64,000 nt of DNA from positions 12,646,618-12,710,617 of the forward strand of contig JAHRHZ010000069.1 in assembly GCA_024137785.1 (NCBI GenBank), written 5' to 3'. Shown here piece by piece: positions 7,580 to 60,656 of this stretch (positions are counted from its first letter, which is position 1; each line of letters opens with the position of its first letter). This DNA is from Ginglymostoma cirratum (taxonomy: Eukaryota). A program made the position numbers and the translations under genes. Below the pieces are notes generated by a model. It saw only the letters and a list, made by a program, of their open reading frames with translations, did not search any database and was not told the origin of the DNA.

Positions 7580-7749
7580 GAAACAAAAACAGAAATTGCT
7601 GGAAAAGCTCAGCAATTCTGAGGAAGGGTCACTCAACCAGAAAGGTTAATTCTGATTTCTCTCCACAGAAGCCGCCAGATTTGCTGAGCTTTTCCAGCAA
7701 TTTTCGATTTTGTTTCTGATTTACAACATCTGCAGTTCGTTCGTTTTTT
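7580..7749 (+). mobile_element. PLE-derived hairpin element, second family; hammerhead-like motif 7618-7648
   Basis: Arms aaacaaaaacagaaattgctggaaaagctcagca / tgctgagcttttccagcaattttcgattttgtttc; motif ctgaggaagggtcactcaaccagaaaggtt; TSD atctactcttgact (7566-7579) / atctgcttttgact (7750-7763). Confidence 0.8.
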
Positions 7750-8705
7750 ATCTGCTTTTGACTAGTTTAACCTCCACACTCTGAATCCCAGGCACCAGGG
7801 ACGCCAAAATTCTATTGCAATGGAGACAGTTGCTCAGTTGAATGGCCACCTATTTTTAGGAATCGCACATGTGCAAACTACTGGAATGCCAACCTTACCT
7901 CTGTGAAAATGAGAAATGTCAGGTAAAAGGTCAGGACTGAGAATTCACAACATCTTCCAGCATTTGTCTTGAACAGGGATGTTGTCTCTGATTGGGGCCT
8001 GGATCTTTTATCTCGGGTGACCTTCCAAGATAGCGTGGGCCTATTTTAAAGAAGAATGTGGAAGTTCAACTGATGTATAAGCCAACATTTAGCCAAACAA
8101 ATTTCAATAAAAAATCTGAAACCTTGAGAAGAAGGTATACTATTGTGTTTCCATACATTAATCCAATGTCACTGAAAGTGGACTTGTCACTGTGAGCTGC
8201 TATCATAAATTGAGGACAGGAAGGAATCCACATACATCCAAGTCCTTTCATCGCAGATAATGCCACATTATTTTTCAGCTGGTAAAAGTTCATATCCTGT
8301 TACAGTTGGCAAGTTTCTGGCATTTGAGGAACAAATCATTGCAAGCATGATGTTGTTTTGTATCTGTCAGATCCATTCATTCTTTGAAAGCCATGGGGTG
8401 TCAGGGACATTTTATTTCAATTTCAGCTGAAAGGAAATAAATGTCTGATTCATTGACATTTCTGGGTTGGCTTGGTATATGTTTATAAACATTCAAGCCA
8501 TCTGTTACTTTGATGATGTTTTGATTCATGTATGCTTGAGGTCACCAATTTCCTTTGTTCTTTGGGATGATCCATCAAACTTCTGAGCCAGTTGGTTGGT
8601 TTGAAAGTGTAACACATCAAAGACCAAATGTTTGTACGTGTGTGGAAGTGCATTTCAATGCTTTAGTTTTTTTTTTTTGTTGGAGGAAATTGGAACTTTG
8701 CTCAT

Positions 8706-9110
8706 TAGAATTTCATAGAATAGGAGGCGATCTCTTTGAAACATAAAGGATTTTTAATGGGCCTGACAAGGTAAATGATGAGAAAATGTTTCCTCCCATG
8801 GGAGAGTCTACGGATCAGAGGGCTTAGCCTCAGAATTAAGGAGTGTCAATTTAAGACTGAGATGAGGAAGAATTTCTTCTTTGAGGCTTCAGAGTCTTTG
8901 GAACTCCTTAACACAGAGAGTTGTAAGGGCCGGGAGCTTGTGTATGTTTAAGGCAGAGATATATTCTTGATCAGTAGGGGAACCAAGCGTTATAGGGAAA
9001 GGGCAGGAACATGGACATGAGGAAAGATGGATCAGGCATGATCCTGTTGAATGGCAGAGTAGGCTTGACGGGCAGAATAGCCTTCTCCTGTTCCTATTTC
9101 TTATGGTCTT
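8706..9110 (+). mobile_element. CR1/HER1 LINE 3' fragment
   Basis: RT C-terminus (aggcgatctctttgaaacata, G-D-L-F-E-T) and CR1 3' UTR gaatagccttctcctgttcctatttcttatggtctt. Confidence 0.8.
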
Positions 9111-11320
9111 ATTCAATTTGATCTCCCCCATCATTTACAACCCTGTGCCATTTGTCTTAGGCCTTGTGGAGATTGGGAGTTCCTTGTTTGGAGGAGGTCA
9201 GGTTCCAAATTTTAACTGGGAAGCAAAATCGAATGTGTACCTGAACAAAACTCTTATCTGGTGGGGCAGCATTTTGGAAGCCCATCAAAAATGCTCGCTT
9301 GATTTCAGTCAGTGAAGAAAATGGAAGACCTGTTAAAGAGACTATAACATCCTGGAAGATATAAGTAAGATGTATTTTCAGACTTCCAAATGTCATTACT
9401 GGGTACCATATTGTGATGTGTAAGTGTTTTTAATGCCGTGATTATGATGGGGACCTGTTGTTTAAAAGTAGGTCTGTGTTTATATTGGTCAGCTTTATGA
9501 ACTGGTTCGTGTGCATTACAGTGCTTTCAAAATGGAGAAAGGACCAAAATGCAGAAAATGCTGTTAGAAAGCATCCTGTGAACTGATGTAATCATCATTT
9601 CTGATGTGATTTAAATGATTGTGGCTGCAACAAAGAAAATGGTTTTGACCTTTGGTGGTGAGCGGGGTTAAGAAATCGATACTTGAAAAGAAAGCCGAAC
9701 AACCTTCTATTTCACACTGATTGTCAGGTACTATGTTTGGAAATTAAACTAAACTCCTGCTTTTCCTTTTTTCCTCGAGATTAGTCTATTGTTTTGGCAC
9801 CTGTGGCTATATAAATGATTGGCTACCTTTCAGGCACTCATGGGTTTCAGCAAAGTAGGTGTTTGATTCTTCTGAGAATCAATGAAAATTTAAGAAGTTG
9901 CAAGAAACAGATTATTCTTTTGAAGTGGTTTCTGATTTGCTGATGTGCAAAGTATTGAAAACATTTTCTTGCCATATGACAAAAAGCATTTTTTTCTCAA
10001 TGAAAAATATGAATGCTTTTATTAGATGATGAAATATCCATTTTCCTCTGAAAGATTATCAAATATTTTCCGTTGATGATGCATGGAGATCTGCAGACTG
10101 TATGTGGTGCAAAACATGTGAGGAATGATACAGAGAGACTGAGGAGTGTCATAGATTATCCGAGTAGGATTGAGATGACAAAGTTGGCATTTCAGTTGTG
10201 TTGAGGATGTCAGTTGTGAGGCATGATATTTATGAGGCCTTTAAACACTGCTATAAATCGGGATAATGTGTTGAAGATTTGAGGTGGGTTTTCTGACTGA
10301 GCTGCCTCTGAACCCACACTCCTTACCCCCTTGTAGCTGCATTGGAAACTGAACCTTGTTGTCAAAGGGTGTGTGAAGGCAACCATGGGATGGACGTGCA
10401 TTTCGTGAACTGCAAGCATGTTTTCTCACATCCGAAGGAACATTCAGCCCCTGGTCTCTTGGTGATTAAGAAGCATGTTTATTCTCTTCCCTCTACTGAC
10501 ATTGTGCCACATCATAAATTTGTGTCCCAAATGGACCACACATGTTAAGTTAAGATACAGAGTGTCTTCTAAAGTGCAAAGAGCAGTCTGCTCAGTCTGC
10601 AAAAGCAGTCCTAAAAGATGTTCTCTTTGCCCCTCTCAACCATGAACAATTTTTCTTTTAAGGTATGAGTCATGCCATAAATGAGTATGACGAATGCATA
10701 CAAAACAACATGCTTTGGATACAGAAAATATGAATTAAGAATAACAAAGCTGGGAAAATTCAGCATATTGGGTAGCATGTGACAGAAGAACAGAAATAGT
10801 GGATGGAAGATTATGGTTGGAAGTGTGGAAAGTCCCCTGCCATAACCCTCCTCCACTCAAAAAAGTCTTTGGCCAGCTCACTGGCAGTTTAGAAGGGGCT
10901 GCACCTGGCGAGACAAGCTCCTAATGGAACCCACCCCTTGCTGGGAGGAAGACTCACTCAGTAGAGATGCCAGCCAAATGGATTTGCCGACAGCACCCAC
11001 AATCCTGGCAGTGCCTGAGCTCCATAGTGGGATCTGTCAGAATTGCAGTCAGAAGTGATGATCTGAAGTTGTTGACCTCAGTGCTGAGTGTAAAAGACAG
11101 AAGACTGCTGAGTCAAAAAATATAATGCTGCTCATTGAGCTTATGCTAAGCTTCACTGGAACTGTGTAGCAGGCCTCAGACAACATATTAGCAAACTGGA
11201 GAATGATAAGCTTGTGCATTGAATTAAGGTGATCAGCAAAGCAGCCATCCAGTCTGCTTTTGGTGCCCCCTCCCCCTGCCCCCAGTGGAGAGAATAACAC
11301 GTCATGAGCAGAAAGTACAG

Positions 11321-11658
11321 CATCATCATCATTGGTAGTCCCTCAGAGATGAGAATGTCGAGAATCCGTCGGTGGCTGTGTACAGACCAATGTGGCTGCC
11401 ATAGGCTCTGTTACACTTGGGCCGTGGGAAGGAATGGGTGGAGCGTTGGTGTGGCAGCGCACTCCTTTTGCTGTTTTCACCTTACTTCCGTTTTTACCCA
11501 ATAACGAGTCTCGAGGTGCTCAATGCCTTCCTGGATGCTCCTGGTGACTGTGGACGGTCTGGAGCCAGTGATTCCCAGGTGTCTGTGGGAATGCTTCACT
11601 TCACCAGTGAGGCCTTAAGGGTATCACTGAAGCGCTTCCTCTGTCCACCTGGGGCTCA
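11321..11658 (-). mobile_element. RTE-clade LINE 3' fragment
   Basis: Minus-strand translation APGGQRKRFSDTLKASLVK..IPTDTWESLAPDR, typical of the RTE ORF C-terminus; (gat)n tail at 11321-11332. Confidence 0.8.
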
Positions 11659-11866: not shown

Positions 11867-12731
11867 TGTGGCATACTCTACCCAGACAACACTGAAGGGA
11901 ACCCCCAGAAGAATTAGGACTGTTTTTACGCTTGAAGGAAAAACCCAGAGCTTAGAAAGCTTTTGTTTTTTAGTTGCTGAAGTTCTGGCTGACATTGGAT
12001 GGATCCGTTTCTCTTCAAGAATGGAGCTAGTTTAGAACGGTTAGGAAACACGTAAGGATTTTAGCTTGAAAGTTTAAGACCGGAAGTGGTTGGATAGAAT
12101 CCTGAAAGGGTTATTTGAAGCTGAGAAGGTCTAATCTTAGTCAATATAATGTGGAGCTAGAGGAACACAGCAGGTCAGGCAGCATCTGGGGAGCACGAAG
12201 GTTGATGTTTCGAGTTTACACCCTGCATCTTGACTTTCCTGCTCCTCTGATGCTGCCTGACCTGCTGTGTTCCTCCACCTGTATTGAATCTGACTCCAGC
12301 ATCTGCTGTTCTTGGTTAATCTTAGTTGTTTGACTAATTAAGGGAGAGGCTACCAACCTCTCAAGATTGTTGAACTGAAGAAACTATAAAGTTAAACCTA
12401 TGGATGGATAGAGAAGTAAACTCTTTCCTGTGTTTGAATACTGTAAAGTGACAATTTTGGAATAGTTGGGATTGTATGTTAACTGTTTGTTTCAAAATCT
12501 TTCAAATTGTCTTGTATGTAAATAATTTGGGTTATTTCAGTCCAACTCCTTTTGTTTTGCATAAAAAAAGCCTGTCTTATTGTTAAAACCAAATTTGCAA
12601 CATGTGTTTCAGTGGAAAACCACCTTGTTAAACCAACAAAAATAAAAAAAAGGCAAAAAAATGTGATTTATCAAGATAGACAGAAGACTGGAATCTGACT
12701 TGTCCTAATAACATTAGTTGGGATCAGAACA
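11867..12731 (+). mobile_element. Solo-LTR-like repeat, family A (start approximate)
   Basis: 3' end tctgacttgtcctaataacattagttgggatcagaaca is shared with 26325-26369; AATAAA-like signals; CA end; interrupted by the hairpin element at 12142-12313. Confidence 0.55.
12142..12313. mobile_element. PLE-derived hairpin element
   Basis: Arms ggaacacagcaggtcaggcagcatc / gatgctgcctgacctgctgtgttcc; antisense hammerhead remnant gatgtttcgagtttacaccctgcatc; TSD taatcttagt at 12132-12141 and 12317-12326. Confidence 0.85.
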
Positions 12732-15520: not shown

Positions 15521-15601
15521 GGCAAAGGACTGGTTCTTATTTTCACATCGACACCTTTTTTGTTTTAGGTAATTTTACTTAATGAAGAAAACACTATTTT
15601 T

Positions 15602-15648
15602 TAGAAATAGCAGGAACTGCAGATGCTGGAAAATCTGAGATAACCAGG
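15602..15648 (-). mobile_element. Start of a PLE-derived terminal repeat running into the assembly gap
   Basis: gaaatagcaggaactgcagatgctggaaaatctgagataacc matches the left arms at 6033, 17490 and 59697. Confidence 0.75.
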
Positions 15649-16048
15649 NNNNNNNNNNNNNNNNNNNNNNNNNNNNNNNNNNNNNNNNNNNNNNNNNNNN
15701 NNNNNNNNNNNNNNNNNNNNNNNNNNNNNNNNNNNNNNNNNNNNNNNNNNNNNNNNNNNNNNNNNNNNNNNNNNNNNNNNNNNNNNNNNNNNNNNNNNNN
15801 NNNNNNNNNNNNNNNNNNNNNNNNNNNNNNNNNNNNNNNNNNNNNNNNNNNNNNNNNNNNNNNNNNNNNNNNNNNNNNNNNNNNNNNNNNNNNNNNNNNN
15901 NNNNNNNNNNNNNNNNNNNNNNNNNNNNNNNNNNNNNNNNNNNNNNNNNNNNNNNNNNNNNNNNNNNNNNNNNNNNNNNNNNNNNNNNNNNNNNNNNNNN
16001 NNNNNNNNNNNNNNNNNNNNNNNNNNNNNNNNNNNNNNNNNNNNNNNN
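15649..16048. other. Assembly gap (400 N)
   Basis: Run of n characters. Confidence 1.
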
Positions 16049-17489: not shown

Positions 17490-17684
17490 GGAGATAGTAA
17501 GAACTGCCAATACTGGAGTCAGTGATAATACAGTGTGGAGCTGGATGAACACAGCAGGCCAGGCAGCATCAGAGGAGCAGGAAAGTTGATGTTTTGAGTT
17601 GGGATCCTTCTTCAGAAATCAGCTTTCCTGCTCCTCTGATGCTGCCTGGCCTGCTGTGCTCCTCCAGCTCCACACTGTGTTATC
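17490..17684. mobile_element. PLE-derived near-perfect hairpin element with antisense hammerhead motif in the loop
   Basis: ~65 bp inverted arms gataatacagtgtggagctggatgaacacagcaggccaggcagcatcagaggagcaggaaag / ctttcctgctcctctgatgctgcctggcctgctgtgctcctccagctccacactgtgttatc; TSD tccaacatcagcattg (17474-17489) / tccaacattaacattg (17685-17700). Confidence 0.9.
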
Positions 17685-20043
17685 TCCAACATTAACATTG
17701 TTGTTTTTGTGTTGAAAGGAACATTGAAGCAATGTGGTAGTCCCTCAAATGAGGAAGAACGTTGAGTATTTTAGCAGGGGAGGCTGTTGCACTGCACCTG
17801 CTGCAAATTTCTAGCTGACCATGAAAGTGTCCCATTCCTACAGCCTGCCATAAATATATCAGAAAGACTTACTGACTGACAAGTGACTTGTTTAGCCGTA
17901 TCATGCTACACCTTCCATGGCTGTCAAGTCCTGAGGTGTAATATCAACTCAGACTTTCTGACCAATAGGCTACCACTGTGTCACAAGTCCTCCCACTGAG
18001 GCAGTGATGCACTTGGTTTTGGGAAGGGTACAGTATACCTTCTTTTCTGATAATTGCCGTGGAATATCACATGGCGACTTTCTGATTCTATCAAGCTAAA
18101 TGGAGGATCAGATATTCATCATGTCAACTTGATATCATAATTTATTGGCTGAACCAGACATTTTGGAAAACATCATGGCTGAGGTATCTGCTGTTGTCCT
18201 GGATGCTCAGACCAGTTTTCAACAGTCGCTGCCTGTGCTGCTTCCTGCATATTCCAGTATGTTAAATTGCACACAACAGCAAAGAACGGAATCAACATCC
18301 CTATATTGTTCCAAGTTCTATCATTTAGAATATCTGTTCTGTTCAATAATTCTTTAGACAACAAAGAACATTTTATGCTGTTTAAATAAAGTTCCGCTGT
18401 GAGCTAACAAGAGCTTTCAAACATCACATTGATCATTGTTGTGATACTAAGTCTGGAACTCTGTGGAGTTGAAGTCAATTTCACAGAAGAAAGTCTGAAT
18501 TATTTGTTGTGAAAGTATGTTGATCCCATGATTTTGACACGAGTAATCCATGTGGCTCAGGAAGCCAAATATCATAGATTAGCTCTGTGTATTTCCAATC
18601 AACGTTAGCATTTTGTACCTCACATGTTAAAGCCCAGGGACCCGTAGCTTCTCACACACCTTTAATATAAGAAATTGCATTTCGTCCCATCTATCACAGG
18701 ATCATTCAAAGAACAGAGTCCATTATGCTGACCAGAAAAGAAAAGTACAAACAGCCAAGCTAAAAATATTATTTTCTATAGCAACCGAATGGGTTTTTCC
18801 AGGCATACCAATGCTTCTGTATCATTAAGATACAAATTCAAATCTCTTCAACCACTCCGTAATGTGCAAAAGATACATTTTAAAAGATGATAATTTATAT
18901 TGAAAAGATGTGGGTCAGCGTGCATATTGCAGAATAATTCTATATTTTCCTTTACATCTTACGATTGTTTCCCTTCTCCACAGTTCAGAGATGATAGTTT
19001 ACACTTGGAATAATGTTTAGCTATTATGGCCATTCTTCAGCTCTGGGATCTGATCTAGTAGTGGTGGATTATTTGACCCACAAGACCACTATTTTATCAG
19101 CCTCATTCAAATGGGATCATTGAATAGTGATGAGTCCTGAATGATATCTTTTCCCTCTCCCAGAGTACTTGAGCAGGTGTCAGAGGCACAAATTGTCTGA
19201 AGCATCAGTAAGATCATGGCCCAACTCCATCTATAAAGAGATAACTGTCTCTGAAAGGCATAGGAAGGATGACTTGCAAGCATGTGGTCATTCTCAAACC
19301 ATGATACTTATTTTTGCATCAGAAAAAATCTTGATTAAATATACGTTTATTTTCATGTTAGCTTAAAAATTAAGTTTGGGTGTTTTGCTCCATACTTCCA
19401 AGAAAACAGTTCCAAAAGCTGCCCAGACTTTTCTAAACCAATTTTTGAACCTTTATGGATGTTGAATTGGATAACACATGCAATAAATAACCATGAATGA
19501 ATTGCTCGACAAACCACACTGGAGACATAATGGGTGTGTTTCTTTCCTTTCCTTTCTCCAATTTGTTTTTCTGCACTAGTTCTTCACACAATCATAAAGA
19601 CTATTACCAGTAGAAAATTTATTTATGATTCAGAAAATTTTGCATAAGGAGAAAAACATATCAGAGAAGCAATGATGTGATACTTAGCTTACATATTACA
19701 TCAATTTGTCTCAAAATGAAAACAGCTTGATTTTTTTTCTAGTCTTTGATAACATCTGAAATGCAGATTGGAAGATAACATTAAGGCTTCTCTCTTTTGC
19801 TACTTCATATCGTATCGATAAAGTGGAAAATTTTGAGGGCATAACACATCTCATTTCACTTTTGTTAAGTGGATGTTTGATGATTGAACAAATTCACCAC
19901 ACTGTCAGCTAGTTAAGACATTTTCTGTCACTAATATTAAACAGATGAACTGTGATTAATAATCTTTTGCTTACCTCATGTTCCTTTTACTTTTGACGCT
20001 TTAACAGTTGAAATCACATTAAACTGAATTCCTGCATTGATGT

Positions 20044-20140
20044 CGATTTTCTGATGAAGGGTTTAGGCCCGAAACGTCAAGTTTTCCTGCTCCTATGATG
20101 CTGCTTGACCTGCTGTGTTCATCCAGCCCCATGCTTGTTA
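20044..20140 (+). mobile_element. 97-bp PLE-derived insertion consisting of a hammerhead motif plus tail
   Basis: Perfect 14-bp TSD tcctgcattgatgt at 20030-20043 and 20141-20154. Confidence 0.9.
20047..20082 (+). ncRNA. Minimal type I hammerhead ribozyme motif (PLE-associated)
   Basis: CUGAUGA (20051-20057), A, stem II GGGUUUAGGCCC, GAAAC, GUC cleavage triplet (20076-20078); short stem I UUU/AAG. Confidence 0.75.
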
Positions 20141-20864
20141 TCCTGCATTGATGTTGTGTTTTATTTTGAACTTCGGCCAGGGACATCCTTGAAGGTCCAT
20201 TTTTTTTTTCTTCTGTAATCTCACAGGTTTTGGCATTTCAAACTATTTCCATTTGACATGGAATGGAGTAAATACATTATTTATTGCCCTTCAAAGGATT
20301 GACAGTTTGAATTCAAGTTGCGTTTTGTTCAAAGCTTTTACAAACTTTATGGATCAAGTATAATACAGAATAGTTCAAATGAGATGTTACATAGAGTGTA
20401 GTACAGACTGATTTATTTCAGTGCAGTACAAAACATTCTGAGGTGGCTTATTACACTTATAGTTTAAGGTATTAAATTAAAATTCACTTTTCATTTTACT
20501 CAATTGTTGGTTCATGTGGCCCAGGGCATACAAGGTCCAGGCCCTTCGATTTTATTATGTTGGAGGAGCCTTAGGCCAAGGTGGAATTTTCTCTTCTGAG
20601 CCTGCATCATGGAAGGCCTGAAAAGTGGGAGGGACTCCTGTGCCAGGGTTGATTGTGTTTTCTGTGCAATTGTGTTCTTCTCAGCTCATTACATACGGAT
20701 GCACGGGTAAAACACCAAATTTTATAGGCAGTAAGTTGTGAAGTCTACCAAATCTGCTGGGCTAAAACGTCAGGCACCATAGTTAAAAGGCATTCAGACA
20801 GCACTTCACTGGAGTATCATTCGATCTCTGCTCATCACCACTGGATATGTCAGAAACAAAACAA

Positions 20865-29000: not shown

Positions 29001-29035
29001 ATTTCATCCTACGTTCCCATTTCAAGAAGCTTACC

Positions 29036-29673
29036 TGACACTGGAGGAGGCCCAGGATGGACATGTTGTCCAGGGAGTGAGAGGGGGAGTTGAAGTGGTC
29101 CACGAATGGGAGGTGTTGTCATTTGTCATGAACCAAGCGTAGGAGCTCTACAAAGCAGTCTCCGAGCCTCCACTTGGGCTCACCGATGTAGAGGAGGCTG
29201 CATCGGGAGACAACATCTCCCATTTGTGAACCACTTCAACTCCCCCTGCCACTCCCTGGACAATATGTCCATCCTGGGCCTCCTCCAGTGTCACAATGAT
29301 GCCACCCGGAAACTGGAGGAACAGCACCTCATATTCCACCTTGAAAGCCTACAATCCAATGGTCTCAATGTGGACTTTATTAGCTTCAAAATCCCCACGC
29401 CCTGGCCTCATCCCAAGACTAGCCCCCGTCTCATCCCCACCTCATTGATCTGTCCGCCTTCTCTCCCACCTATCTGCTCCACTATCTACCTGCTATCACT
29501 GCCCTCGCTCTCTATTTATTTCAGAGCCTCCTTCCCCTCCCCCATTTCTGAAGAAGGGTCCCGACCCGAAACGTCAGCTTTCCTGCTCCTCTGATGCTGC
29601 CTGGCCTGCTGTGTTCCTTCAGCTCCACACCATGTTATCTCAGACTCCAGGATCGGCAGTTCTTACTATCTCT
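29036..29673 (+). mobile_element. 5'-truncated Penelope-like element with inverted 5' segment, GIY-YIG endonuclease remnant and hammerhead motif
   Basis: 29036-29210 on the minus strand encodes SRCSLLYIGE (YIG motif). 29211 onward on the plus strand encodes QHLPFVNHFNSPCHSLDNMSILGLLQCHNDATRKLEEQHLIFHLESLQSNGLNVDF. C-rich UTR and terminal repeat follow. Confidence 0.9.
29545..29578 (+). ncRNA. Minimal hammerhead ribozyme motif in the PLE terminal repeat
   Basis: CUGAAGA (29548-29554), A, GGGUCCCGACCC stem II, GAAAC, GUC (29573-29575). Confidence 0.7.
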
Positions 29674-29679
29674 GAGTGA

Positions 29680-32301: not shown

Positions 32302-33262
32302 ATGAGTTGTTGTGATTTACTGAGATTGCCATCTGTTTCTAATAAATATTTCCAAATACAAGGATTTTTTAAAAATTACATGATCCTGTGTAAACTATAT
32401 TTGAGTGTACAGCCTTACTAACACCTTGCAGTTCCAGGACACATAACTTTGAATTCACAAGTTGAATGATCAATAATTTGCCTTCACAATTTTTTTTCCT
32501 TTTGAAATCATATCAATGCCAGTGATATCTTGCAAATGGTACACAATGGAATGATTGTTTCATTAATATGGTAAACAGAAGTAAAATATTCTAAGGTCTC
32601 ATTTTATCCCTTGACAGAAGATAATTCTGTATTCCTTAAAATTATATCAGAAACTGGATCTTAAACAGACAAAGTATATGCGTGGTCAGATCCCTCATTT
32701 AAACCTTCTTTCTGGACTTGATGGGCGAGTCCTGTTTGACCTGATGTTACTTGGCTTCAGCAGGATCTTTTCCCTGATGATTTTGTTATCTCCTATAATA
32801 TAAAAAACTGAGCATGGACATTGCGGTATTGAAGAATCCATCAGCCATTGATAAACAAAAAAAGTTTTTAAGTAGAAACCTTACATTTTTCAGCCATATC
32901 AGTCTGAGCTAATATTAAGCTACGAATTTACACAGATCAGCATGTTTCCACTCTAGTGTCATGCTTCAAGTAAACAGAAGTTGGCAAATTAGGAACATGA
33001 GATCTTTAATATGCTACACACCCAGGAACAGCAAGCCAAACTGAATCAGACTCACTTTCAACACGGTGAAATTAAAATATTAAATGACCATCAAAATTGC
33101 CCAATTGTTCCTGACCAGTTTAAGAATGACAGATATCAGACATCACATTTGTACCTTAACCAGAAATTAACAATTTATTATTGACAATATAACTTAGCAG
33201 ACCAAAACTAAACAACAAGGTAATCTAATTAATGTCTGATTTAAATCGTATCTTCTTTGATA

Positions 33263-33399
33263 GAAACTGAAAAAACTGTGGATGCTGTAAATCAGGAACA
33301 AAAACAGAAGTTGCTGTAAAAGCTCAGCAGGTCTGGCAGCATCTGTCAGGAGAAGTCAGAGTTAATGTTTCAGATCTGGTGACCCTTCCTCAGAACTCC
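33263..33399 (-). mobile_element. PLE-derived short element (family 2), hammerhead plus tail
   Basis: Homologous to 7618-7749, 39913-40034 and 53079-53177. Confidence 0.85.
33358..33399 (-). ncRNA. Hammerhead ribozyme motif with a 6-bp stem I
   Basis: Minus strand GGAGUU-CUGAGGA-AGGGUCACCAGAUCU-GAAAC-AUU-AACUCU; GGAGUU pairs with AACUCU. Confidence 0.7.
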
Positions 33400-35870: not shown

Positions 35871-37409
35871 AATGACATCGTAGACACAGCACAAATCTTG
35901 CAACAGCTGTGAATATATGTTTATTTCTCCCCCACTGTACTTTTAAAAGCAATCACATTTATTCATGATAATAAACTGATCAAAAGTAAACATTTTTCAA
36001 GTGTCGAAAGTGATCTTAATGATTATGTAATAGTTATGAATACGGGACATTCATTTATCCATTCTGTGCCCCGTGTGCAATAATTTTGAAAATGCCACAT
36101 ATATTCTTTCTATGGCTTTCTTTGAATGTTGTATTAACCAGTGAACAGTTTGAACTATTGTGTCCAAAATGATCCTTTGATGCTTTTCTTCTTGAGATTG
36201 TCACTTCAACTGGCATTTTAATGGTCCATTTTAATATTTACATTTCTGTAGCTATTTCTCAAATGATCATTTCAAGAAGATAATGCAGAAGCTGTTAAGT
36301 TGCAAATACCTGTCCACTGAATAGATGTTATTACTTTTTCGTAATTATCCCATCTCCTGCCCCCAGAAAAAATAATAACATTGACCATTGTAGCCACTGA
36401 TTATTATCACTTTCAGTCATAGAGCTTCAAATTGATATGATATGTTCTTGTTTCAATCATTTACGATAAATTACTTCTCACGTTTAGCTCCAGAACTTTG
36501 TTAGAACCCCCATTTGCAACAATTCTTTCAGGAATTCTTGATTTTTGCTTTCAGTGATTATCCGTGACCACTGACAACTGAAAGGATAAATGTAAGTCCT
36601 TCATTATGGAAAGTAAAACATTTCAATGGTGTTTTTACTTATACTATCTCTTTGCAATGTTTTGTGAGTATGAGTGATTATTGTATTTTCAAATAAACAG
36701 TCTGTTGCTATCAAGGTCCAGAAAGCTTGCAAAGATGATGAGCCAGATGTTTGTTCTTTCTTGTTGCTGTTTCTGATGAAACGTGTGTAATGTGAAATTA
36801 TTGAAATAATTGATCTGCTTGATCCACAGAGCAAACAGAGGCATTATTCTTATTTTCTTTGTCAAAAAGGATGGCTGATTTCAATCATGCATTGTTGCAA
36901 TGGAGAATTGGTTGAATTCATGAACTGAAACTCGTTTGGTTCGGTTTGAACACAATGATTACGTCCTGCTATATTATCAATTCTGCAATCGTGCATTTTC
37001 TTCCAAAGGAGTGTTTGAGAAAAAGAAGTGGAAACAGGAATAGCAAAGAGAGACAGATGTGTCCTTTTTTAAGAAATCAAAATTATTTCAAGACACTTGA
37101 AGTTCCTTAGCTTCAGAAAATGAAAATTACCTGCAGTACAAGCTACAGTGATAAGTAGCATGACAGAACTAAATATTTGTTTCTAAGGGGGGAAACATTG
37201 GCATTGGGAAATTAAGGATAACATTTCAGACATGTCAGGAAACAGCTTGCAGTCACAGACCGTCAAACGTATTAAGATTTAAAAAAGAACTTCAGTATAA
37301 TTTTCCATGCTATTTCCATATATTTCTTCCTTTCATGGTCAAAAATCTATTGATTGCAATCTTGATTATATTGATCCACTGAGCATTCACGCCCTCGTAG
37401 AAAATTCCA

Positions 37410-37750
37410 GTGGTCAGCACTGCTGCCTCACAGCACCAGGGACCTGGGTTTGATTCCACCCTCAGGTGACTGTCTGTGTGGAGTTTGCACGTTCTCCCCG
37501 TGTCTGCATGGGTTTCCGTTGGCTGCTCCGGTTTCCTCCCATGCGCAAGATGTGCAAATTAGGTGGATTGGCCATGTTAAATTGCCCATAGTGTTCGGCA
37601 ATGTAGGTGGGTTAACAATGGGAAATGTGGTATTACAGGGATAGGGTGGGGGCATGGGTCTGAGTGGGATGCTCTTCAGAGAGTCAGTGTGGACCTATTA
37701 GGCTGAATAGCCTGTTTCCACACAGGAGGGACCCTATGGAATTTCTATGA
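37410..37750 (+). mobile_element. HE1-type SINE, nearly full length
   Basis: tRNA-like head gtggtcagcactgctgcctcacagcaccagggacctgggtttgattcc, V-core and CR1-like tail. Confidence 0.9.
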
Positions 37751-38195: not shown

Positions 38196-38199
38196 AAAC

Positions 38200-39748: not shown

Positions 39749-39899
39749 TATCAAATTATCAAATGCATTTTGAAAATCCAAATGTACTACATCCAGTTCC
39801 CGAATCCCTTTATCCACTGTGCTCATTATACTCTCTAAAACAGTTATAGATTTATGAATCACAATTTCATTTCATAAAACCAAGTTCACTGTTGATCAT

Positions 39900-40034
39900 G
39901 TGACCCTTCCTCGGTCACCAGACCCGAAACATTAACTCTGAACTTTGTTTTCACAGGTGCTGCCAGACATGCTGAGCTATTCCAGCTACTTCTGTTTTTG
40001 TTCCTGATTTACAGCATCCGCAGTTCTTTCGGTT
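39900..40034 (+). mobile_element. PLE-derived short element with a micro-inversion inside the hammerhead
   Basis: gtgacccttcctc (antisense of the ribozyme 5' half) joined to ggtcaccagacccgaaacattaactctg; perfect 15-bp TSD ttcactgttgatcat at 39885-39899 and 40035-40049. Confidence 0.9.
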
Positions 40035-41389
40035 TTCACTGTTGATCATACTGTGAAGTTTAAATGCACTGTGCCCACACGTTTATGGTAAATTCTAGTG
40101 TGGTTTCTTTTTAATCGTGCCAGGCTGATAGAAACTTTTCATCCCTGTTTACTTTTTCCTACTTTTTTTGGAACAGTGTGGTTACATTTGCTGCCTTCCA
40201 AACCATTTCAGTATTTAGAAGATCAAAACCAGTGTATCCTTTATCTCTGAGCCAACTTCTTTGATAGATTAGCATCTAGGCCATCAGATCGAGGGAATGG
40301 GTTAGGTTTTAACTCAAATGATTTCTCGAGGATGTTTCCTATATCAATATTAATTGTGCGTTCCTTACTCTCTTTGGATTCTATTTTCCCCACAATTTCC
40401 ACTTCTTTGTGACTACTGTTATAAAGGCAGATAAAGTGTAGCATTTAATGGAACTAATGGTGTTCTCATCCATGATCACAGAAAGTGTGGAGGAATACTG
40501 TCATTTATGTGCTGGAAGACTGGAAGAATCTCATAAAGGACCTTACTGGTCACTGTTCAGAATTCCCTGGAGAGGGGACACTGCGGGCAGCGGATGGAGC
40601 AGTGCAGCAACCTCTCACACTGACCTCCTATTGCGCAAAATAATCACCCGCAGGCGTGGAAATTGCATGTAATATGCTCACCAAAAGCCAGGATGAAAAT
40701 GGGGCACCAGCCGTGGGTGAATGAGGCTGGGGTGAGGTTTGCCAGAGAGGGATTACAGGGCATTTGAAGGTGAGAACAAAGGACTCTCTTTCATCAGAAG
40801 CCCCACCACCTTACTCAATAATTGTATCTGACAATGGTGAATGCTGGCAGGTTGCTGGCTATCATGACATTTTTGTCTGGTATTTTGTTCGAGACTTGGG
40901 AGAGCCATGTCACTCCAATTTAATCCCTGAGCCAATACAAAATAGCAGGGGGCTCAGAGATCATACATTAATTTAATTGGGAACAGATTTCTTTAACTGG
41001 ATATTTCATGTAGCTGATCCCACCCAGCTTTCCCAAGCAGCAGAACGTGCCCATTTCTGCTTGCTCAATTTTTTTTCTAAAATATCCATTTACAGCCTTT
41101 AACATTCCTTATCCCTTATCATAATTTATCTTATTGCTGCTTTAAGAGACCAGAACTTAGTTTTGCTGTACTCTTGCTTTTTACCTATTTGTGAAAGCTA
41201 ACAATTTTTTTAAACTTCTTTTTAAATTTACTCTGATTTTGTACTCTATCCAAAAACTGTTAAAGTACTCTCATTTTCTATCCTACCTTGCTTTCTCATT
41301 TTCTCAGCCATAATTCATTATCATTTCAAACATTTACAGTTCTTAACCTGGCAGCTCTTTTTGGCAATGCTATCAATCATGTTTCATTG

Positions 41390-44000: not shown

Positions 44001-44771
44001 AGTGAAAACAGTAAGAGACAAAAGGGTATGAAACACGATGTGAAATTTATCATCTGACATATTTCCAATTTTCTTCAGAGCAAGAATGAGACTTCATAAT
44101 TAAAATAGTTAAATTTTAATGTGAGATTATTGGATTGAGATTCATTATCACTGATCTGTAATGGCCAGAGTATTTATCCTTGTAATAACAAAACATAAGT
44201 ACCTGTGGTGCATTAAATTAAAATTTGGAACATTTCCAGAAAAAAGAGTTAGGAAGCTTTTAGAGTACAATTATGGCTTGAATTATATCATTTAAAGAGC
44301 TGTTCAATGTTTTCCAAAATGGTGGATGTGCCTGGAAATCACACATCCCACTTTCACTGAAGTGGGAATAGATCAGGTTGGCATTTGCACACGTATGGCT
44401 CTGGCAGGCGAGTATCAACTGAAATCATTAGATGCCTTGACTGAAACAGGATTTTGGCAGCCTTGACGTGTGAAACCTGAGGTGCACAGAGTAGATCTGG
44501 TAAGAGCAGGTCTGGACTTTGTGGACTTCTTTTGATTACCAGGGAACCCCTTTTGAAAGATGAGGTACACTTCGGGGCTTTGTTCTGTGACACCTTTGGG
44601 GAAGGTAAGATGCCCTGTGTTGGAGTAGATCTATCTCTGAAGTGAGGGTGCTTTGGAATATGTCAGGTGGTCTTTGAGAAACGCAAGTTGACTTTTGTAA
44701 TTGTGAAAGGTAGATTAAAAAAAAAACTGTTGAAACTATCCGAAGCCCCGCTTGAAGGAATCGGTCCAAAG

Positions 44772-45498
44772 TGTTGTGAGGTTGAGTAGAATACTTGTGG
44801 AACAGGAGGCAGGAAGTTAGAATTTGGTGTGTGTAAAAGGCTAAGGGTGAAAGTATTGCATGGTCCCTTGAAAAGATGATGTGTTTTTTCTGTGCGTGGA
44901 GATTTAAAGTGGATGTCTGTGAACAGCAGCTTGAAAGTTTGCAAGTACACAGAGAGCTAACTGCCATCAGCCAGAATTAACAGCCCTCACTCTCAAGAGA
45001 GAATTGTTTGCTCTCATAACTTGCTCTATGTATGAGAGAAAGCATCATCTAAGGAACAAAGGTACCCATGGCACAACTAATTAGTGTTTCTGACAGAAGA
45101 ATCAACAAAGAAGGCAGAAGAACATTCCAGAAGATTTAACCTGGCTATAATTTTGAGACACTAAATTCTTTTTCAAATATAAGTGGGACGCGTATTTAGT
45201 AGAACAGCATACCATTACACTCTTGCTTTCTTCGGGAATAGTTAGGAGTTAGATGAGATTTATTCAGTTTGTTAATAGTTTAGTTAATTTGTTCACTGTT
45301 AGAGTTAGATAAATAAATTGTTAGTCGTTGATTTTAAAGTCTGTGTCAGGGGTTTATTTTATTTAACCACTAGAAGTTGCTGAACAGCAGGTTACACCAC
45401 TTTTCACACTCCTTTTATAGATTATAGAGTGAGGTGGTCCTCTTTGGGTGTTTCGGTTTCAGTTCTCAGAGGGGGAGATCAACGCTCCCTTTATAACA
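44772..45498 (+). repeat. 5' LTR of the Gmr1-type element
   Basis: Colinear with 50204-50928. Confidence 0.9.
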
Positions 45499-50035: not shown

Positions 50036-50203
50036 GTTTAAAAGAAAAATTTTAATATAAGATAAAAACAATAGTTTTCAATGTTGTACAGATATAGAAT
50101 GAGAATAAAATGTGTAACTCTAGACTAATGAGCTTTGGATCAAAGAGAAAAAAAATGAAGCCATCTTTTCAAAATGATGGTTCATTTCTTTCTTAATGGG
50201 AGG

Positions 50204-50928
50204 TGTTGCAAATTTGGGTAGAGTACTTATGGATCAGGAGGCCAGAAGTTAGAATTTGGTGTTTGTAAAATTCTAAGGAGGAAAGCATTACATAGTCCTT
50301 TTAAAAGATGATGTGCTTTTCCCATGCTTAGAGGGTTAGAATGGATGTCTGTGAGCAGCAGCTTGAAAGTTTGCAAGTACACAGAGAGCTAACTGCCATC
50401 CGCCAGGTTTAACAGCCCTGAACTCTCAAGAGAGAGTCACTGGCTCTCAGAGCCTCCTCCATATATTAGAGAAAGCTAAATAACAAAGGTACCCATGACA
50501 CAACTAGTTGATGTTCCTCACAGAAGAATCAACAAAGAAGGCAGAAGAACATTCTGGAAGACACATAACCTGGCTGTAATTTTGAGAGACTAAATTCTAT
50601 TTTTGTTTATATAAGTGGGACTTCTATTTTTTCGAACAGCATACCATTAGTATCTTTCTTTATTAAGGAATAGTTAGGAGTTAGATGACATTTATTTGGT
50701 TTGTTAATACTTTAGGTAATTTGTTCAGTGTTAGAGTTAGATAAATAAATTGTTACTTGTTGATTTTAAATTCAGAGTCAGGAATTTATTTTACTTAACC
50801 ACTAGAAGTTGCTGAAAAGCAGGTTTACCACTTTTCACACTCCTTTTACAGATTATAGTGCAAGGCACTCCTCTCTGAGTGTTTCATTTTTACTTCTGAG
50901 ATGGGGGACCAACCTCCACTTTATAACA
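50204..50928 (+). repeat. 3' LTR of the Gmr1-type element
   Basis: Directly follows the PPT; colinear with the 5' LTR. Confidence 0.9.
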
Positions 50929-52103: not shown

Positions 52104-53078
52104 CTGCAAATTGTTATAAACTCTTTGGACTATCACTGCTCATTTCAGTGAGGGATTTTACACTTGATTGAAGTGTTTGTTGTTCGAAAGCTTTACTTCA
52201 TTGAAAGAGCTTAAATGTAGTTTTGTTTTACGAAGGTCTTTTTTCAGTATCATAATACTTCATAAACAAAAGTACATTTACATTTTTTCAACAAAATAAC
52301 AACAAACTTTTCAATCAAGTGTAAAATCCCTTATGATAATGAGCATTGGAATTTATAGTCATAAAAAGGTCTCACAATTTGTAGGTGCCAATCAAACTAT
52401 GAAATGGCAGGTACCCGACTAAAATAATCTAACATCTGCATGTGTCCTGAGGCCTACATGTGGTGGGTACCAAGCGAGTGAGATGTAAGGGTAAAGAGTT
52501 GTGAGCCATGGGAATGAGTTGGCAGGAATTAGCAGAAAATTAGCAGGGTCAATAAATGGCCAAGGGGTGTGATGGAAAAACTCAGATTTGCTTTGTTGAC
52601 ATGAAGGGTTATGGCGGTAAGATAGCAGCCTCGGTTGATATGGGGTGCATGATGAGGTCAATTTAGTTGTTTGGGGGAATATTTTGCAATGGAGGATCTG
52701 AGAATCAATGGGAACTGTGGGGAATATGAGTTGGCATGGAGCTTTGGGAGCATGGTGGAGGTGTGTGTCGAGTGAGCAGTGAGAGCTGGAGGATGTTTAA
52801 TGATTTTTTCATTATTTTTACACTTCAGACGAGGTACTAGATCCCCACCCAGGCTTTCTGATCAGCCAACCTACTCACAAAGCAGGTTCCTCAGTTCATT
52901 GGGTGGTCTGGGGGTGTGGGTGTAGGTGGGGTGGGAAGGGATGTGGCAGTTCGATGGTCCAATTTGTAATCCAGCCTCCATGCCCCGACCATAAATCTGA
53001 CACCTGGGCAGCTGTTTTTAAAGGTTGCATTCACAGACCCAGGAATTCTCCCATTGATGCACACCAAACCCAGGAGCA

Positions 53079-53177
53079 AAAATAAAAATTGCTGGAAAAG
53101 CTCGGCCGGTCTGGCAGCATCTGTGTAGAGAAATCAGTTTCATGTTTCAGGTAGAGTGACCCTTCCTCAGAACTGAG
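53079..53177 (-). mobile_element. PLE-derived short element (family 2)
   Basis: Antisense hammerhead motif atgtttcaggtagagtgacccttcctcagaactg; possible 8-bp TSD caggagca at 53071-53078 and 53178-53185. Confidence 0.8.
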
Positions 53178-57590: not shown

Positions 57591-57592
57591 CA

Positions 57593-57899
57593 GGCAGCAC
57601 TGTGGCTCAGTGGTTAGCACTGCTGCCTCACAGATCCAGGGACGCGGTTTCGATTCCAATCTCGAAAAACTGGCTGTGTGGAGTTTGCACGTTCTCCCCG
57701 TGTCTGCGTGGGTTACTTCCACAGTCCGAAGATGTGCAGGCTATGTGAATTGGTCATGCTAAATTGCCTGTGGTGTTCAGGGATGTATAGATTTGATGGG
57801 TTATAGGGATGGGTCTGGGTGGGATGCTCTGAGGATCAGTGTGGAGTGTTGGGCTGAAGAGCCTGTTTCCACGCTGTAGGGATTCTATGATGATGATGA
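57593..57899 (+). mobile_element. Full-length HE1-type SINE
   Basis: A-box gtggctcagtgg, B-box-like ggtttcgattcc, V-core and (gat)n tail. Confidence 0.9.
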
Positions 57900-58019
57900 A
57901 CCTGGTCCAATCAGGGAGCCCTGGCTGACAGATATAAGCAGGAGCATCAGACATCCTGTTCTCACTGAGAGCAAGCTCTGAGGGAGCTGGATCAGTGTCA
58001 AGGATTCTCCACGTGCTTT

Positions 58020-58660
58020 ACTGAGGTCACATCTCATTCTTGTAACTCTCGAGAACACAGGCCCTGTCTCCTCAATTGCTCCTCATTATACAATCCCACC
58101 ATCCCAGGATTCTGCCTGGGAACCATACGCTGCACACTCCCTTGGGTAAGATGGTAAAAACTGTAAATAGTACTCGAAGCACAGTCTCACCAATGGTCTG
58201 ACCAATTGAATTAACACATCTTTACTCCTGTAATAAAGATAAAATATGGCAGATGATGTAAATTTGAAACAAATACAGGGAACGCTGGAGAAATACACCA
58301 GGTCTGGCAGCATCAATGGAAAGAAATAGAGTTAATGTTTTGAGTCTGGTATGACTGTTCTACAGAACGACTTCATTTTTATTCCGATACTCAAATTCTC
58401 CTTCAATAAAGGCCACATATCATTTGCCTTCCTAATTGATTATTACAGCTGCATATTAGCTTTCAGTGACTTATGCACAAGGACACTCCCATTCCTTTGG
58501 ACATGAATACTTCCCAAACTCTCTCATTTTACAGATGTACTCTGCACTTCTTCCACCTACATGGATATCCTCACATTTATTCACATCACGTTCCATCAGC
58601 CTTGTTCATTCTGAAGTAAGTGAGTGTCATTTGAATAAAGGAAATTGTGAAGGCACGAGG
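58020..58660 (-). mobile_element. Decayed CR1 LINE fragment
   Basis: Minus-strand translation SKDVLIQLVRPLVRLCFEYYLQFLPSY; interrupted by a PLE-derived element. Confidence 0.7.
58241..58368 (-). mobile_element. PLE-derived short element, older variant
   Basis: caggtctggcagcatc..agagttaatgttttgagtctggtatgactgttctacagaac; the boundary again lies at the ribozyme 5' side. Confidence 0.65.
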
Positions 58661-58736
58661 CACTAATTGACAGTACATAGGTCTCTGCACCACTTCCAAT
58701 GCATTTACATCCTCCTGAAAGAAGATCAATATTTTA

Positions 58737-58935
58737 CAGGTATTTCTCCTATAATGCAATAGTTGCGTTCTTATGTGACCTCGCGATATAGAAAATTGCA
58801 TTATAGAGAAATTGCTTTAGAAAATTGTCATACTGTACAGTAGAAAGTTCACATTGTCCAAACAGCGTCCACTATTCATCAATTGCATGACAGCAATTTG
58901 CGTTAATGAAACACATGTTGAAGCAGAAATACCTG
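58737..58935. mobile_element. Tc1/mariner-pogo (Tigger-like) MITE
   Basis: TA|caggtatttctcct..agcagaaatacctg|TA terminal inverted repeats with TA duplication. Confidence 0.85.
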
Positions 58936-58939
58936 TATT

Positions 58940-59680
58940 TGTCCTGCAGCCCTGTTTAACTCAAGTACAACCTCCCTACTTTTGCGTTCAATTTTATTTC
59001 AAATCAACCATAACATTTTATTAACTTTCCTATTTACTTAATATACCTACACACTAACCTTTGGTGGTTCACACAGCAGAACATACAGCCCTCTGCATCT
59101 CAGAGCTCGACAGTCTCTTCCCGTTTGGATAGTATGCCTCTTTTCACGTTGCTGGTCAAATAGATACTTTCACATTTCCCCCATTATATCTTATTTATCA
59201 GATCTATTCCCACTTCATTAACCAATCTGTATCCCTTTACAACTCCTTATGTCCTCTTCAGAACTTGCCTTCCTGCCGATCTTTGTGCAATTAGTAAACA
59301 TAGCATCCATACCTTCCGTTCCTCCAACCATGTCATTTCTATAAATTGTAAAATGTTGAACTCCCAGCATTGATCCATGTAACACAGCACTCATTACATC
59401 TTTCTAACCAGCAAATTAGCCATCTCTACTTATTTTCTGTTTCCTGTTAGCTATCCCATCTCTTAGTTATGCGAACACACAATTGATGTCTATTTTCTGC
59501 ACTAACTTTTGGTGTGACAATGTAATGGTTAAACATGCTTGGACTTTGACAAAGGCATGTTGACCTTTCCAGATTGCCTTTAATTTATCTAAATGCTTGT
59601 CTTATATTGTATTTAACAATAACTTATAATGTTTTCCTTCAACATTTGATAAGCTAACTTGGCCTGTACTTTCTTACAAT
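58940..59680 (-). mobile_element. Decayed CR1 RT fragment
   Basis: ctttgtgcaattagtaaacat (MFTNCTK, cf. FADDTK) and ctcccagcattgatccatg (GSMLG). Confidence 0.55.
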
Positions 59681-59696
59681 AACATATTTGTTTCTA

Positions 59697-60284
59697 GAGA
59701 GAAAAGGTACTGCAGATGCTGGAGAATCCAAGATAACAAGGCGTGGGGCTGGATGAACACAGCAGGCCAAGCAGAATCATAGGAGCAGCAAATCATATTC
59801 AGCCTGGGAACCCTGCAGCCCAATGGCATCAATGTGGATTTCACAAGCTTCAAAATCTCCCCTCCCCCAACCGCATCCCAAAACCAGCCCAGCTCATCTC
59901 CACCTCCCTAACCTGTTTTTCCTCTCACCTATCCCCTCCTCCCACCTCAAGCCCCACCCCCATCTCCTATCGACTAACATCATCCCGCCTCCCCTTGACC
60001 TGTCCGTCCTCCCTGGACTGACCTATCTCCTCCCTACCCCCCCACCACCAACACTCACCTTAACTGGCTCCATCCCCACCTCTTCAACTTGTCTGCCTCC
60101 TCTCCACCTATCCTCTCCTCTATCCATCCTCTATCCGCCTCCCCTCTCTCCCTATTTATTTCAGAACCCTCTTCCCCTCCCCCATTTCTGATGAAGCATC
60201 TAGGCCCGAAACGTCAAGTTTTCCTGCTCCTATGATGCTGCTTGGCCTGCTGTGTTCATCCAGCCCCACACTTTGTTATCTCGG
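59697..60284 (+). mobile_element. Truncated Penelope-like element with inverted terminal arm and hammerhead motif (60188-60215)
   Basis: Inverted arm 59697-59789; ORF end IFSLGTLQPNGINVDFTSFK; C-rich UTR; ctgatgaagcatctaggcccgaaacgtc; TSD atttgtttcta (59686-59696) / atttatttcta (60285-60295). Confidence 0.9.
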
Positions 60285-60532
60285 ATTTATTTCTACTCTG
60301 TTTTCTATCCAGTTGTCAATCTGCAGCTCATGCCCAGATGTTAAACCTTCCAATAATACCTCTATGCCATTGTATCCTTAACATATGTCTCTTTGCATGT
60401 CTCCTTGATGCCTCTGACAACTCATTGTCACTGGCCTGTTGACAGTTTTAAAGAATTTGACAGTTCATGAGTTTATTCATGTTTTGCACACATTAATTCC
60501 AACTTTTAAAAGTGACAAAGAACAGCTCACAG

Positions 60533-60656
60533 GAGCAAATCACTGCAGAATCTGGAATCTGTACTGAAAACAATAAAAAATCATAGAAATCACAGCAGAT
60601 CAGGCATCCGTGGAGAGAGTGCAAACTAACGTAGTTGACTCTTCGTCAGGGCTGAC
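60533..60656 (-). mobile_element. PLE-derived short element, further variant with partly deleted hammerhead
   Basis: actgcagaatctggaatctg..cagcagatcaggcatccgtggagagag..ctaacgt..gactcttcgtcagggctg; CUGACGA on the minus strand. Confidence 0.6.

What the first reader, a model, noticed from the sequence alone, without database searches (positions are those of the whole stretch)
7580..60656. 5' boundaries and inversion points cluster at the ribozyme
Seen: single-arm copies at 20044, 33263, 53079, 58241 and 60533 stop within about 10 nt upstream of CUGANGA, and the sense arms at 6033 and 7580 start there too. At 17490 and 12142 the sense arm starts essentially at the predicted cleavage site (C|AGCUUUCC and |GACUUUCC). 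At 39900 the inversion falls inside stem II. Inference: the ribozyme marks the end of the reverse-transcribed template. Starts at the cleavage site would reflect self-cleaved RNA. Starts just upstream of the core would reflect RT stalling or a transcription start next to the ribozyme. This could be a genomic record of in vivo cleavage.
Basis: partly seen in the sequence, partly recalled or inferred. Interest (0 to 1): 0.7.

Follow-up and report, generated by a model that had tools for sequence, protein, structure and literature searches.

The report
Penelope copies start beside uncut ribozyme
Short copies of a Penelope-like jumping gene in this genome begin at one sharp point four to five bases before its hammerhead ribozyme, not at the ribozyme's cut site, which likely marks where the element's RNA starts and would mean it usually spreads from uncut RNA.

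Summary
The repeats are 3′ ends (pLTRs) of Penelope-like retrotransposons with a minimal hammerhead motif. The clustering is real, but it is not at the cleavage site. Of 356 arms mapped, 105 start 1–6 nt upstream of CUGANGA and only 8 start 11–60 nt upstream. Fifteen start within 3 nt of the NUH, 3 exactly at +1. Genome-wide counts put the edge at a C-A dinucleotide (−5/−4) in two families, with excess G before the A.

Best reading (about 60%): reverse transcriptase runs off the 5′ end of an RNA that starts flush with the ribozyme's 5′ edge, so the template is uncleaved. One young subfamily has a 2–3-fold bump at +1/+2, under 2% of copies and confounded by microhomology. It may record rare cleavage (about 35%).

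In head-to-head pairs, 69 of 75 classifiable pairs have one arm ending at each of the two 3′ end points. This fits two primings per insertion. The element type, tail and inversions are known. I did not find the 5′ cliff in the papers I could search.

The parts
6031..6218 (.). Family A head-to-head pair: minus arm 6031-6123 (with tail, starts 6 nt past the cut site); plus arm 6124-6218 (short end, starts at C3+1)
7580..7752 (.). Family B head-to-head pair: short minus arm 7580-7620; plus arm with C3 at 7618, starting 2-3 nt upstream, with tail
12143..12316 (.). Family A head-to-head pair: minus arm starts at C3+2; plus arm starts within about 3 nt of the cut site (ambiguous)
15604..15648 (-). 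Tail end of a family A arm cut off by a 400-N assembly gap
17491..17686 (.). Family A head-to-head pair: minus arm 17491-17619 starts at C3-4 (tail end); plus arm starts at 17620 = C17, one base before the cut site
20031..20154 (+). Young family A single short copy: target duplication 20031-20043, a few extra bases, T run, C3 at 20051, predicted cut after 20078, short 3' end at 20142, second duplication copy to 20154
29036..29675 (+). Long family A copy: end of the ORF (29211-29402 open), C-rich UTR, C3 at 29548, tail to 29675; inverted ORF piece 29036-29208. It runs through the ribozyme.
33259..33397 (-). Family B single copy, C3 at 33393, starts at -4 with a G before it, tail end
39885..40050 (+). 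Family B copy: 15-nt target duplication, 13-nt inverted piece 39900-39912, sense arm 39913-40036 starting in stem II
53071..53176 (-). Family B single copy, C3 at 53170, starts at -4 to -6, short 3' end
58241..58368 (-). Old B-like copy with decayed core; start near -3 by eye only
59696..60288 (.). Long family A insertion: minus arm 59696-59792 (tail, starts 5 nt past the cut site) joined to a plus arm from the ORF end through C3 at 60188 to the short end
60533..60656 (-). Third-family copy, C3 at 60649, stem II/GAAA decayed; 5' boundary not determinable

Best explanation
These are 5'-truncated copies of Penelope-like retrotransposons whose starts pile up at a C-A dinucleotide 4-5 bases before the hammerhead core, likely because the element's RNA begins there and reverse transcriptase runs off its end, so the copied RNA would be uncut. 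SHOWN: (1) 3' ends fall at two points about 65-70 and 97-104 nt past the cut site. (2) The 5' cliff, with almost no starts in the next 50 nt upstream. (3) The edge includes C(-5) and little beyond it. (4) In family B the ORF begins about 40 nt after the tail. (5) Head-to-head pairs carry one short and one tail end. INFERRED: (a) The pLTR promoter fires at C(-5)/A(-4), probably by RNA polymerase II, with some extra G from copying the cap. (b) The enzyme starts internally at the two tail sites. On the first pLTR of a transcript it has only 100-135 nt to copy, which gives the short class; on the downstream pLTR it gives the long class. (c) Each end of the target break primes at one of the two sites. 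The two cDNAs join head-to-head, or one joins the target by microhomology. (d) Self-cleaved RNA is at most a rare template.
For: Cliff: 105 of 356 arms in -6..-1, 8 in -60..-11, 80 beyond -60; unselected subset 56, 3 and 42 of 189; simulation null. Composition is random upstream of -5 in short arms and fixed in long ones. Target duplications abut the cliff in individual copies. Genome-wide family A: 11,326 copies with intact ATTT and non-templated -8/-7, about 17% of an estimated 105,000; base at -5 in the 100 listed rows, counted by hand, C50 A22 G21 T7. Family B base at -5: G 2611, A+T 2954, C 4991 with most long copies excluded; T at -6 in only 36 of 100 listed rows. G is 47% of non-C bases against 26% expected; internal truncations show no G bias (33 against 29.7 of 145); three clean duplication+G+start cases (L149, L245, L298). 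Re-copied first bases before the start: 14 of 117 cliff arms against 3 of 101 internal arms, p = 0.02. Both arms of one insertion often stop at the same edge. C6 and A7 are invariant in 24 long copies of both families. The lizard element initiates internally at two sites, does not need cleavage in vitro, and has no RNA reads starting at the cut site (PMC11167929).
Against: No RNA 5' end was observed: all 20 runs offered are contigs and two layings showed no start. About half of the edge copies keep C(-5), which a canonical start at A would not transcribe, so a second start one base upstream has to be assumed (precedent in PMC6954239). G is not enriched before C(-5) in family B (12 of 100), where C is (31 of 100). 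Much of the G excess can come from partner-arm, target or re-copying microhomology; head-to-head arms at -4 show G in only 6 of 17. The re-copying test has a high distant control (9 of 117). In family A the T run is often lengthened, so the A itself is not enriched in local short arms (20 of 57). No promoter element was tested.
Confidence: 0.6

Rival explanations
1. Reverse transcriptase arrests or lets go at the 5' edge of the ribozyme on a longer RNA (structure, bound protein, or the C-rich tract), or the RNA end is made by some processing other than transcription start.
For: The edge coincides with the 5' strand of stem I. Family A has a C run directly upstream. Starts decay smoothly downstream of the edge.
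Against: Family B has no C run at the edge. Stem I is weak (80% paired). Copies that pass the point almost never stop in the next 50 nt (8 of 356). Re-copied first bases fit a physical template end.
Confidence: 0.2
2. The GIY-YIG endonuclease, or a resolution step, cuts the new DNA at the element's own CATTT/CAGTT and discards the upstream part.
For: The lizard enzyme prefers ATT near the ORF-pLTR junction and cuts both strands (PMC11167929). ATT is mildly enriched in target flanks (96 against 73.5).
Against: CAGTT (4 against 4.0), CATTT (9 against 6.1) and CATT (21 against 18.8) are not clearly enriched at targets. Family B has no ATT at the edge. A cut would not give re-copied starts or extra G.
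Confidence: 0.08
3. The edge is a 3' splice site and the copies derive from spliced RNA.
For: Family B reads as a pyrimidine tract then CAG|TT at -5..-3. In D. virilis the intron end maps to the 5' end of helix I (PMC4209133).
Against: Family A has the same cliff with no AG there. No shared upstream exon is seen, and target duplications abut the start. A at -5 is only about 14% of AG-bearing B copies, lower than I recall for exon ends (recalled, not tested).
Confidence: 0.07
4. Self-cleavage sets most 5' boundaries. As a rare event only, I put it at about 0.35.
For: Young subfamily A1, corrected starts per 1000 copies: -7 3.5, -2 1.4, -1 2.8, +1 8.1, +2 8.0, +3 3.0, +10 4.3. About half of 100 listed +1 starts have unique flanks (hand count). 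In L250 both arms start at +1/+2.
Against: Only 3 of 356 arms start at +1, and the bump is under 2% of copies against 17% or more at the cliff. The purine-rich partner arm and stem I supply AA/AG microhomology exactly there. In family B both the +1 count (186) and the control (91) are dominated by microhomology and indel variants.
Confidence: 0.02
5. Artefact: alignments stop where the conserved ribozyme ends, or hairpin loops were deleted after insertion.
For: The family B simulation piles calls at -10..-7. Eight of 9 assembly gaps of 400 N lie beside element arms, so long palindromes are under-sampled.
Against: The cliff is present in single-arm copies with abutting target duplications and in near-identical young copies. 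The family A simulation is flat. Upstream bases are random.
Confidence: 0.03

Closest known systems
Poseidon_Ac (PAc), lizard Penelope-like element, PMC11167929 (main text parts 1-2 of 4 read; supplements not seen)
   Same: Hammerhead at the pLTR/ORF junction, two internal RT start sites that define the tail, AT-rich targets, both DNA strands cut and extended, uncleaved RNA as the main substrate in vitro.
   Different: There the ORF starts inside stem II; here family B's ORF starts about 40 nt after the tail. In what I read, the paper maps neither 5' ends of genomic copies nor a transcription start; its supplementary Fig. S2 shows copy ends and could bear on this.
Minimal type I hammerheads of metazoan PLEs, PMC4209133 (parts 1-2 of 4 read)
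   Same: CUGANGA, extra base before helix II, GAAA, palindromic 15.2-16.2, no helix III, short helix I; mostly single motifs, some pairs on opposite strands.
   Different: That paper proposes processing by self-cleavage; here most copies derive from uncut RNA.
PLE insertion anatomy, PMC8557442 (passages) and PMC3846280 (parts 2-3 of 5 and passages)
   Same: 5' truncation, inverted 5'-truncated copy, 30-40 bp tail often at one end only, target duplications, microhomology at 5' junctions, Inr-like motif in the pLTR.
   Different: PMC3846280 explains head-to-head palindromes by self-priming, possibly on antisense RNA. The 69-of-75 short-plus-tail pairing and the shared 5' edge fit two primings on sense RNA better, though snap-back is not excluded.
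D. virilis Penelope promoter, PMC2377424 (passages)
   Same: Transcription starts inside the pLTR at an initiator.
   Different: There the start lies 46 nt plus a 75-nt intron upstream of the ribozyme (PMC2377424 with PMC4209133); here it would be flush with stem I.
Non-LTR retrozymes, PMC7229834 (passages) and bioRxiv 10.64898/2026.07.22.740005 (parts 1-3 of 5 read; supplements closed)
   Same: Type I hammerhead, pLTR-related, many monomers.
   Different: No tandem arrays in this window. Copies end at PLE tail sites and begin upstream of the core, not at the cut.
Untemplated 5' G of full-length L1, PMC9341517 (passages)
   Same: An extra G before a pyrimidine/purine start, read as a copy of the cap.
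   Different: Here the G excess is confounded by microhomology and re-copying.

Membership tests
EN+ Penelope-like element | One ORF with RT followed by a C-terminal GIY-YIG endonuclease | tested here: met
   L009 frame: RVT_1 (E 0.0015) then GIY-YIG (E 0.0048), both below the curated cut-offs; it links to the window's ORF end by tblastn at 73%. The 64-aa window piece alone had no Pfam hit.
EN+ Penelope-like element | Optional 30-40 bp tail (two 3' end points) | tested here: met
   Bimodal 3' ends near +64-70 and +97-104 in both families
EN+ Penelope-like element | Inverted 5'-truncated partner copy and target duplication | tested here: met
   83 head-to-head pairs, all within one family, 47 with a duplication score of 8 or more
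EN+ Penelope-like element | pLTR sequence also lies upstream of the ORF | tested here: met
   Family B: L252 and L275 continue from the tail into the same predicted ORF start; contigs bridge it. Not found for family A.
Penelope/Poseidon versus Neptune clade | RT phylogeny; Cys-rich linker | not tested
   No tree built
Minimal type I hammerhead | Core CUGANGA and GAAA, NUH | tested here: met
   A: 112 and 96 of 128 arms; B: 56 and 53 of 83. NUH is GUC in A, GUU in B. No Rfam hammerhead match at E up to 1.
Minimal type I hammerhead | Helices I and II supported by covariation | tested here: inconclusive
   Helix II 95.8% and helix I 80.2% paired, far above slid controls, but covariation no higher than shuffles (265 of 500)
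Minimal type I hammerhead | Self-cleavage activity | not testable with these tools
   Only the indirect +1/+2 bump
Non-LTR retrozyme | Tandem units, each with a hammerhead | tested here: not met
   No such array in the window; copies are dispersed
Polymerase II initiator at the cliff | Pyrimidine/purine dinucleotide at the start | tested here: met
   C-A invariant at -5/-4 in 24 long copies; the initiator consensus itself is recalled
Polymerase II initiator at the cliff | Cap-derived extra G | tested here: inconclusive
   Excess G with confounders
Polymerase II initiator at the cliff | Capped RNA 5' ends at that base | not testable with these tools
   Only contig runs were available

The most novel reading that the evidence does not exclude
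Tens of thousands of genomic copies record the Penelope integration reaction at single-base resolution. Transcription starts flush with the ribozyme's 5' edge; a dimeric enzyme primes both ends of the break at the two tail sites of one uncut RNA; it runs off and re-copies the template end in a telomerase-like way; and a small +1/+2 class is the first in vivo trace of cleavage by a minimal PLE hammerhead. The ribozyme would then act as an off-switch at the head of the mRNA rather than as the processing step for transposition.
Probability: 0.25. Interest if true: 0.75.

Novelty: new member of a known kind. Interest (0 to 1): 0.52.

Why it matters
The role of hammerheads in Penelope-like elements and their integration mechanism are stated open questions (PMC8557442, PMC11167929). 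This gives base-level predictions from the genome alone: an RNA 5' end 33-35 nt upstream of the cut site, mostly uncut templates, and one RT start site per DNA end. A ribozyme at the very head of the mRNA would remove the cap if it cut, which suggests a control role. The short copies also coincide with assembly gaps in this genome.

Tried and rejected
Rfam scan: only hairpin/miRNA-like hits below gathering scores, no hammerhead. Covariation: not above shuffles. RNA runs: contigs only; no starts, no splice joint. Cap-G test on local data: weak (B 8 of 17, p = 0.05; A 5 of 14, p = 0.29), and inspection of 50 loci (20 picked for G, 30 for any non-C base at -5) showed many G's explained by partner, target or re-copying. 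Target motif CATT/CAGTT, suggested by eye from duplications, was not clearly enriched. Family B cleavage-site counts were uninformative. Same-RNA origin of the two arms: the partner is in the top quarter of identities in 34 of 56 pairs, compatible but unable to separate twin priming from snap-back. No family A ORF start was found among 108 tail ends. PDB sequence search gave only two unrelated weak hits. Earlier scan findings: none. Literature searches for the 5' cliff or an equivalent analysis found none; subscription papers and unseen supplements are not covered. About half of the genome stretches requested were not available, so the unselected sample is 916 kb from five contigs.
Full report
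WHAT THE REPEAT IS. The window lies in a 4.36-Gb genome. It holds 17 arms of a dispersed repeat in two main families, A and B, plus one third-family copy. Long copies read: end of an ORF, pyrimidine-rich UTR, CUGANGA-stem II-GAAA-CG-UH, then 65-105 nt. A related frame (L009) has RT followed by GIY-YIG, both below Pfam cut-offs. The 3' ends are bimodal, about 30-35 nt apart, which is the Penelope 'tail' (PMC8557442, passages; PMC11167929, parts 1-2). In family B the sequence continues from the tail into a predicted ORF start about 40 nt later (L252, L275), so the ribozyme sits near the head of the coding transcript. The motif matches the minimal hammerhead of PMC4209133 (parts 1-2 read). Rfam has no match, covariation is not above shuffles and activity is untested.

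OBSERVATION. The two 'cleavage-site' starts do not: 17490 keeps C17, which lies 5' of the cut, and 12142 is ambiguous. Two long copies that run through the ribozyme were omitted.

HISTOGRAM. I seeded only on sequence at least 8 nt downstream of the cut site, in 916 kb of unselected sequence (window included) plus 88 loci found by tail similarity. I called 5' ends against 15 natural long copies. Of 422 arms, 66 were dropped (30 at N or an edge, 25 under 80% identity, 11 short at the 3' end). Of the 356 kept, 105 start at -6..-1 relative to C3, 11 at -10..-7, 8 at -60..-11 and 80 further upstream. Fifteen start within 3 nt of the cut site and 3 exactly at +1. The unselected subset gives 56, 3, 42 and 10 of 189 for cliff, -60..-11, long and cut-site classes. 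Uniformly truncated real copies predict 5.6 (family A) in the cliff window against 48 seen. The B simulation is noisier and piles at -10..-7, but short B arms have random bases where long ones are fixed. Young copies and copies with abutting target duplications show the same edge.

WHERE THE EDGE IS. Exact genome-wide counts: family A, 11,326 copies with ATTT intact and non-templated bases at -8/-7, about 17% of roughly 105,000 (a scale-up from 22 local copies, so loose). By hand count of the 100 listed rows the base at -5 is C50, A22, G21, T7. Family B: G 2611, A+T 2954, C 4991 at -5; among 100 listed C rows the base at -6 is T36, C31, A21, G12, near background for the templated T. So the template reaches C(-5) or A(-4) and little further, in both families. 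G makes up 47% of non-C bases against 26% expected, and internal truncations show no such bias. But partner-arm, target and re-copying microhomology explain many G's, and only three cases are clean (L149, L245, L298). Re-copied first bases occur in 14 of 117 cliff arms against 3 of 101 internal arms (p = 0.02; distant control 9 of 117).

CLEAVAGE SITE. For the young A1 subfamily I counted starts with three non-templated upstream bases: -7 148, -2 55, -1 111, +1 404, +2 391, +3 129, +10 246. After removing indel variants seen in listed rows (at +1, +2 and +3 only) and correcting for exclusion probability, this is 3.5, 1.4, 2.8, 8.1, 8.0, 3.0 and 4.3 per 1000 copies. Of 100 listed +1 rows, about 19 are indel variants, 30 join a partner or tandem arm and 51 have unique flanks (hand count). 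This is a 2-3-fold bump covering under 2% of copies, placed where cleavage predicts it but also where AA/AG microhomology is easiest. Family B counts are swamped by such artefacts. I put real rare cleavage at about 35%.

HEAD-TO-HEAD PAIRS. All 83 pairs join arms of one family and 47 have a target duplication. Sixty-nine pair a short end with a tail end, 4 are tail/tail, 2 short/short and 8 unclassifiable (69 of 75, p = 6e-15 against 0.5). Tail and short arms reach the cliff equally often (33 and 34), and both arms often stop there. 'Tail at one end only' is known qualitatively (PMC8557442, PMC3846280). The simplest reading, given the dimer model and two start sites in PMC11167929, is one priming per DNA end; snap-back self-priming (PMC3846280) is not excluded.

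MECHANISM. Best reading (0.6): transcription starts at C(-5)/A(-4), and internal RT initiation on the first pLTR yields a 100-135-nt run-off product from uncut RNA. Adjacent C and purine starts occur at vertebrate dual-initiation promoters (PMC6954239, passages), and an extra 5' G is read as a cap copy in L1 (PMC9341517, passages). Penelope pLTRs carry promoters (PMC2377424, passages). Rivals: RT arrest or other processing (0.2), endonuclease cut (0.08; target flanks are not clearly enriched for the edge motifs), splice acceptor (0.07; fits B only), artefact (0.03), cleavage as the main cause (0.02). No RNA end could be seen: the runs are contigs.

NOVELTY. The element, ribozyme, tail and inversions are known. 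I found no report of the 5' cliff or of a count of short/tail pairing in eight searches; supplements of PMC11167929 and the retrozyme preprint were not seen and may bear on this. Verdict: a new member of a known kind, with a testable mechanistic readout; interest 0.52.

Noticed in passing
window 15649-16048 and 8 other 400-N gaps in unselected loci: 8 of 9 assembly gaps of 400 N lie beside an arm of this repeat, so long palindromic copies probably break the assembly and are under-counted.
   Followed up: partly
L250:1498-1725: Head-to-head pair whose arms start at +1 and +2 of the cut site, with 51 nt between them, mostly the post-tail sequence: the best single candidate for a cleaved template with a template jump.
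   Followed up: partly
G000 rows (C24, C40): A few copies carry short A/T-rich insertions exactly at or next to the cut site with both sides retained; these may be rejoined cleaved halves or later insertions.
   Followed up: no
L252:2862-2905; L275:139-185: A pyrimidine tract and AG lie just before the predicted start codon of family B, a possible splice acceptor; no spliced joint was seen in contigs.
   Followed up: partly
L212:1498-1760: The spacer between the two arms holds telomere-like repeats, also present in the flank, plus a re-copied element start.
   Followed up: no
window 44771-45475 and 50203-50906: Direct repeats about 700 nt long and 5.4 kb apart, 81-88% identical, LTR-like.
   Followed up: no
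window 368-809, 37408-37740, 57608-57891: Another dispersed repeat family of about 300-400 nt (D6, D8-D11), SINE-like by size.
   Followed up: no
window 60533-60656; L097:9400; L131:1674: A third hammerhead-bearing family with a different stem II; no long copy was held to map its boundary.
   Followed up: partly
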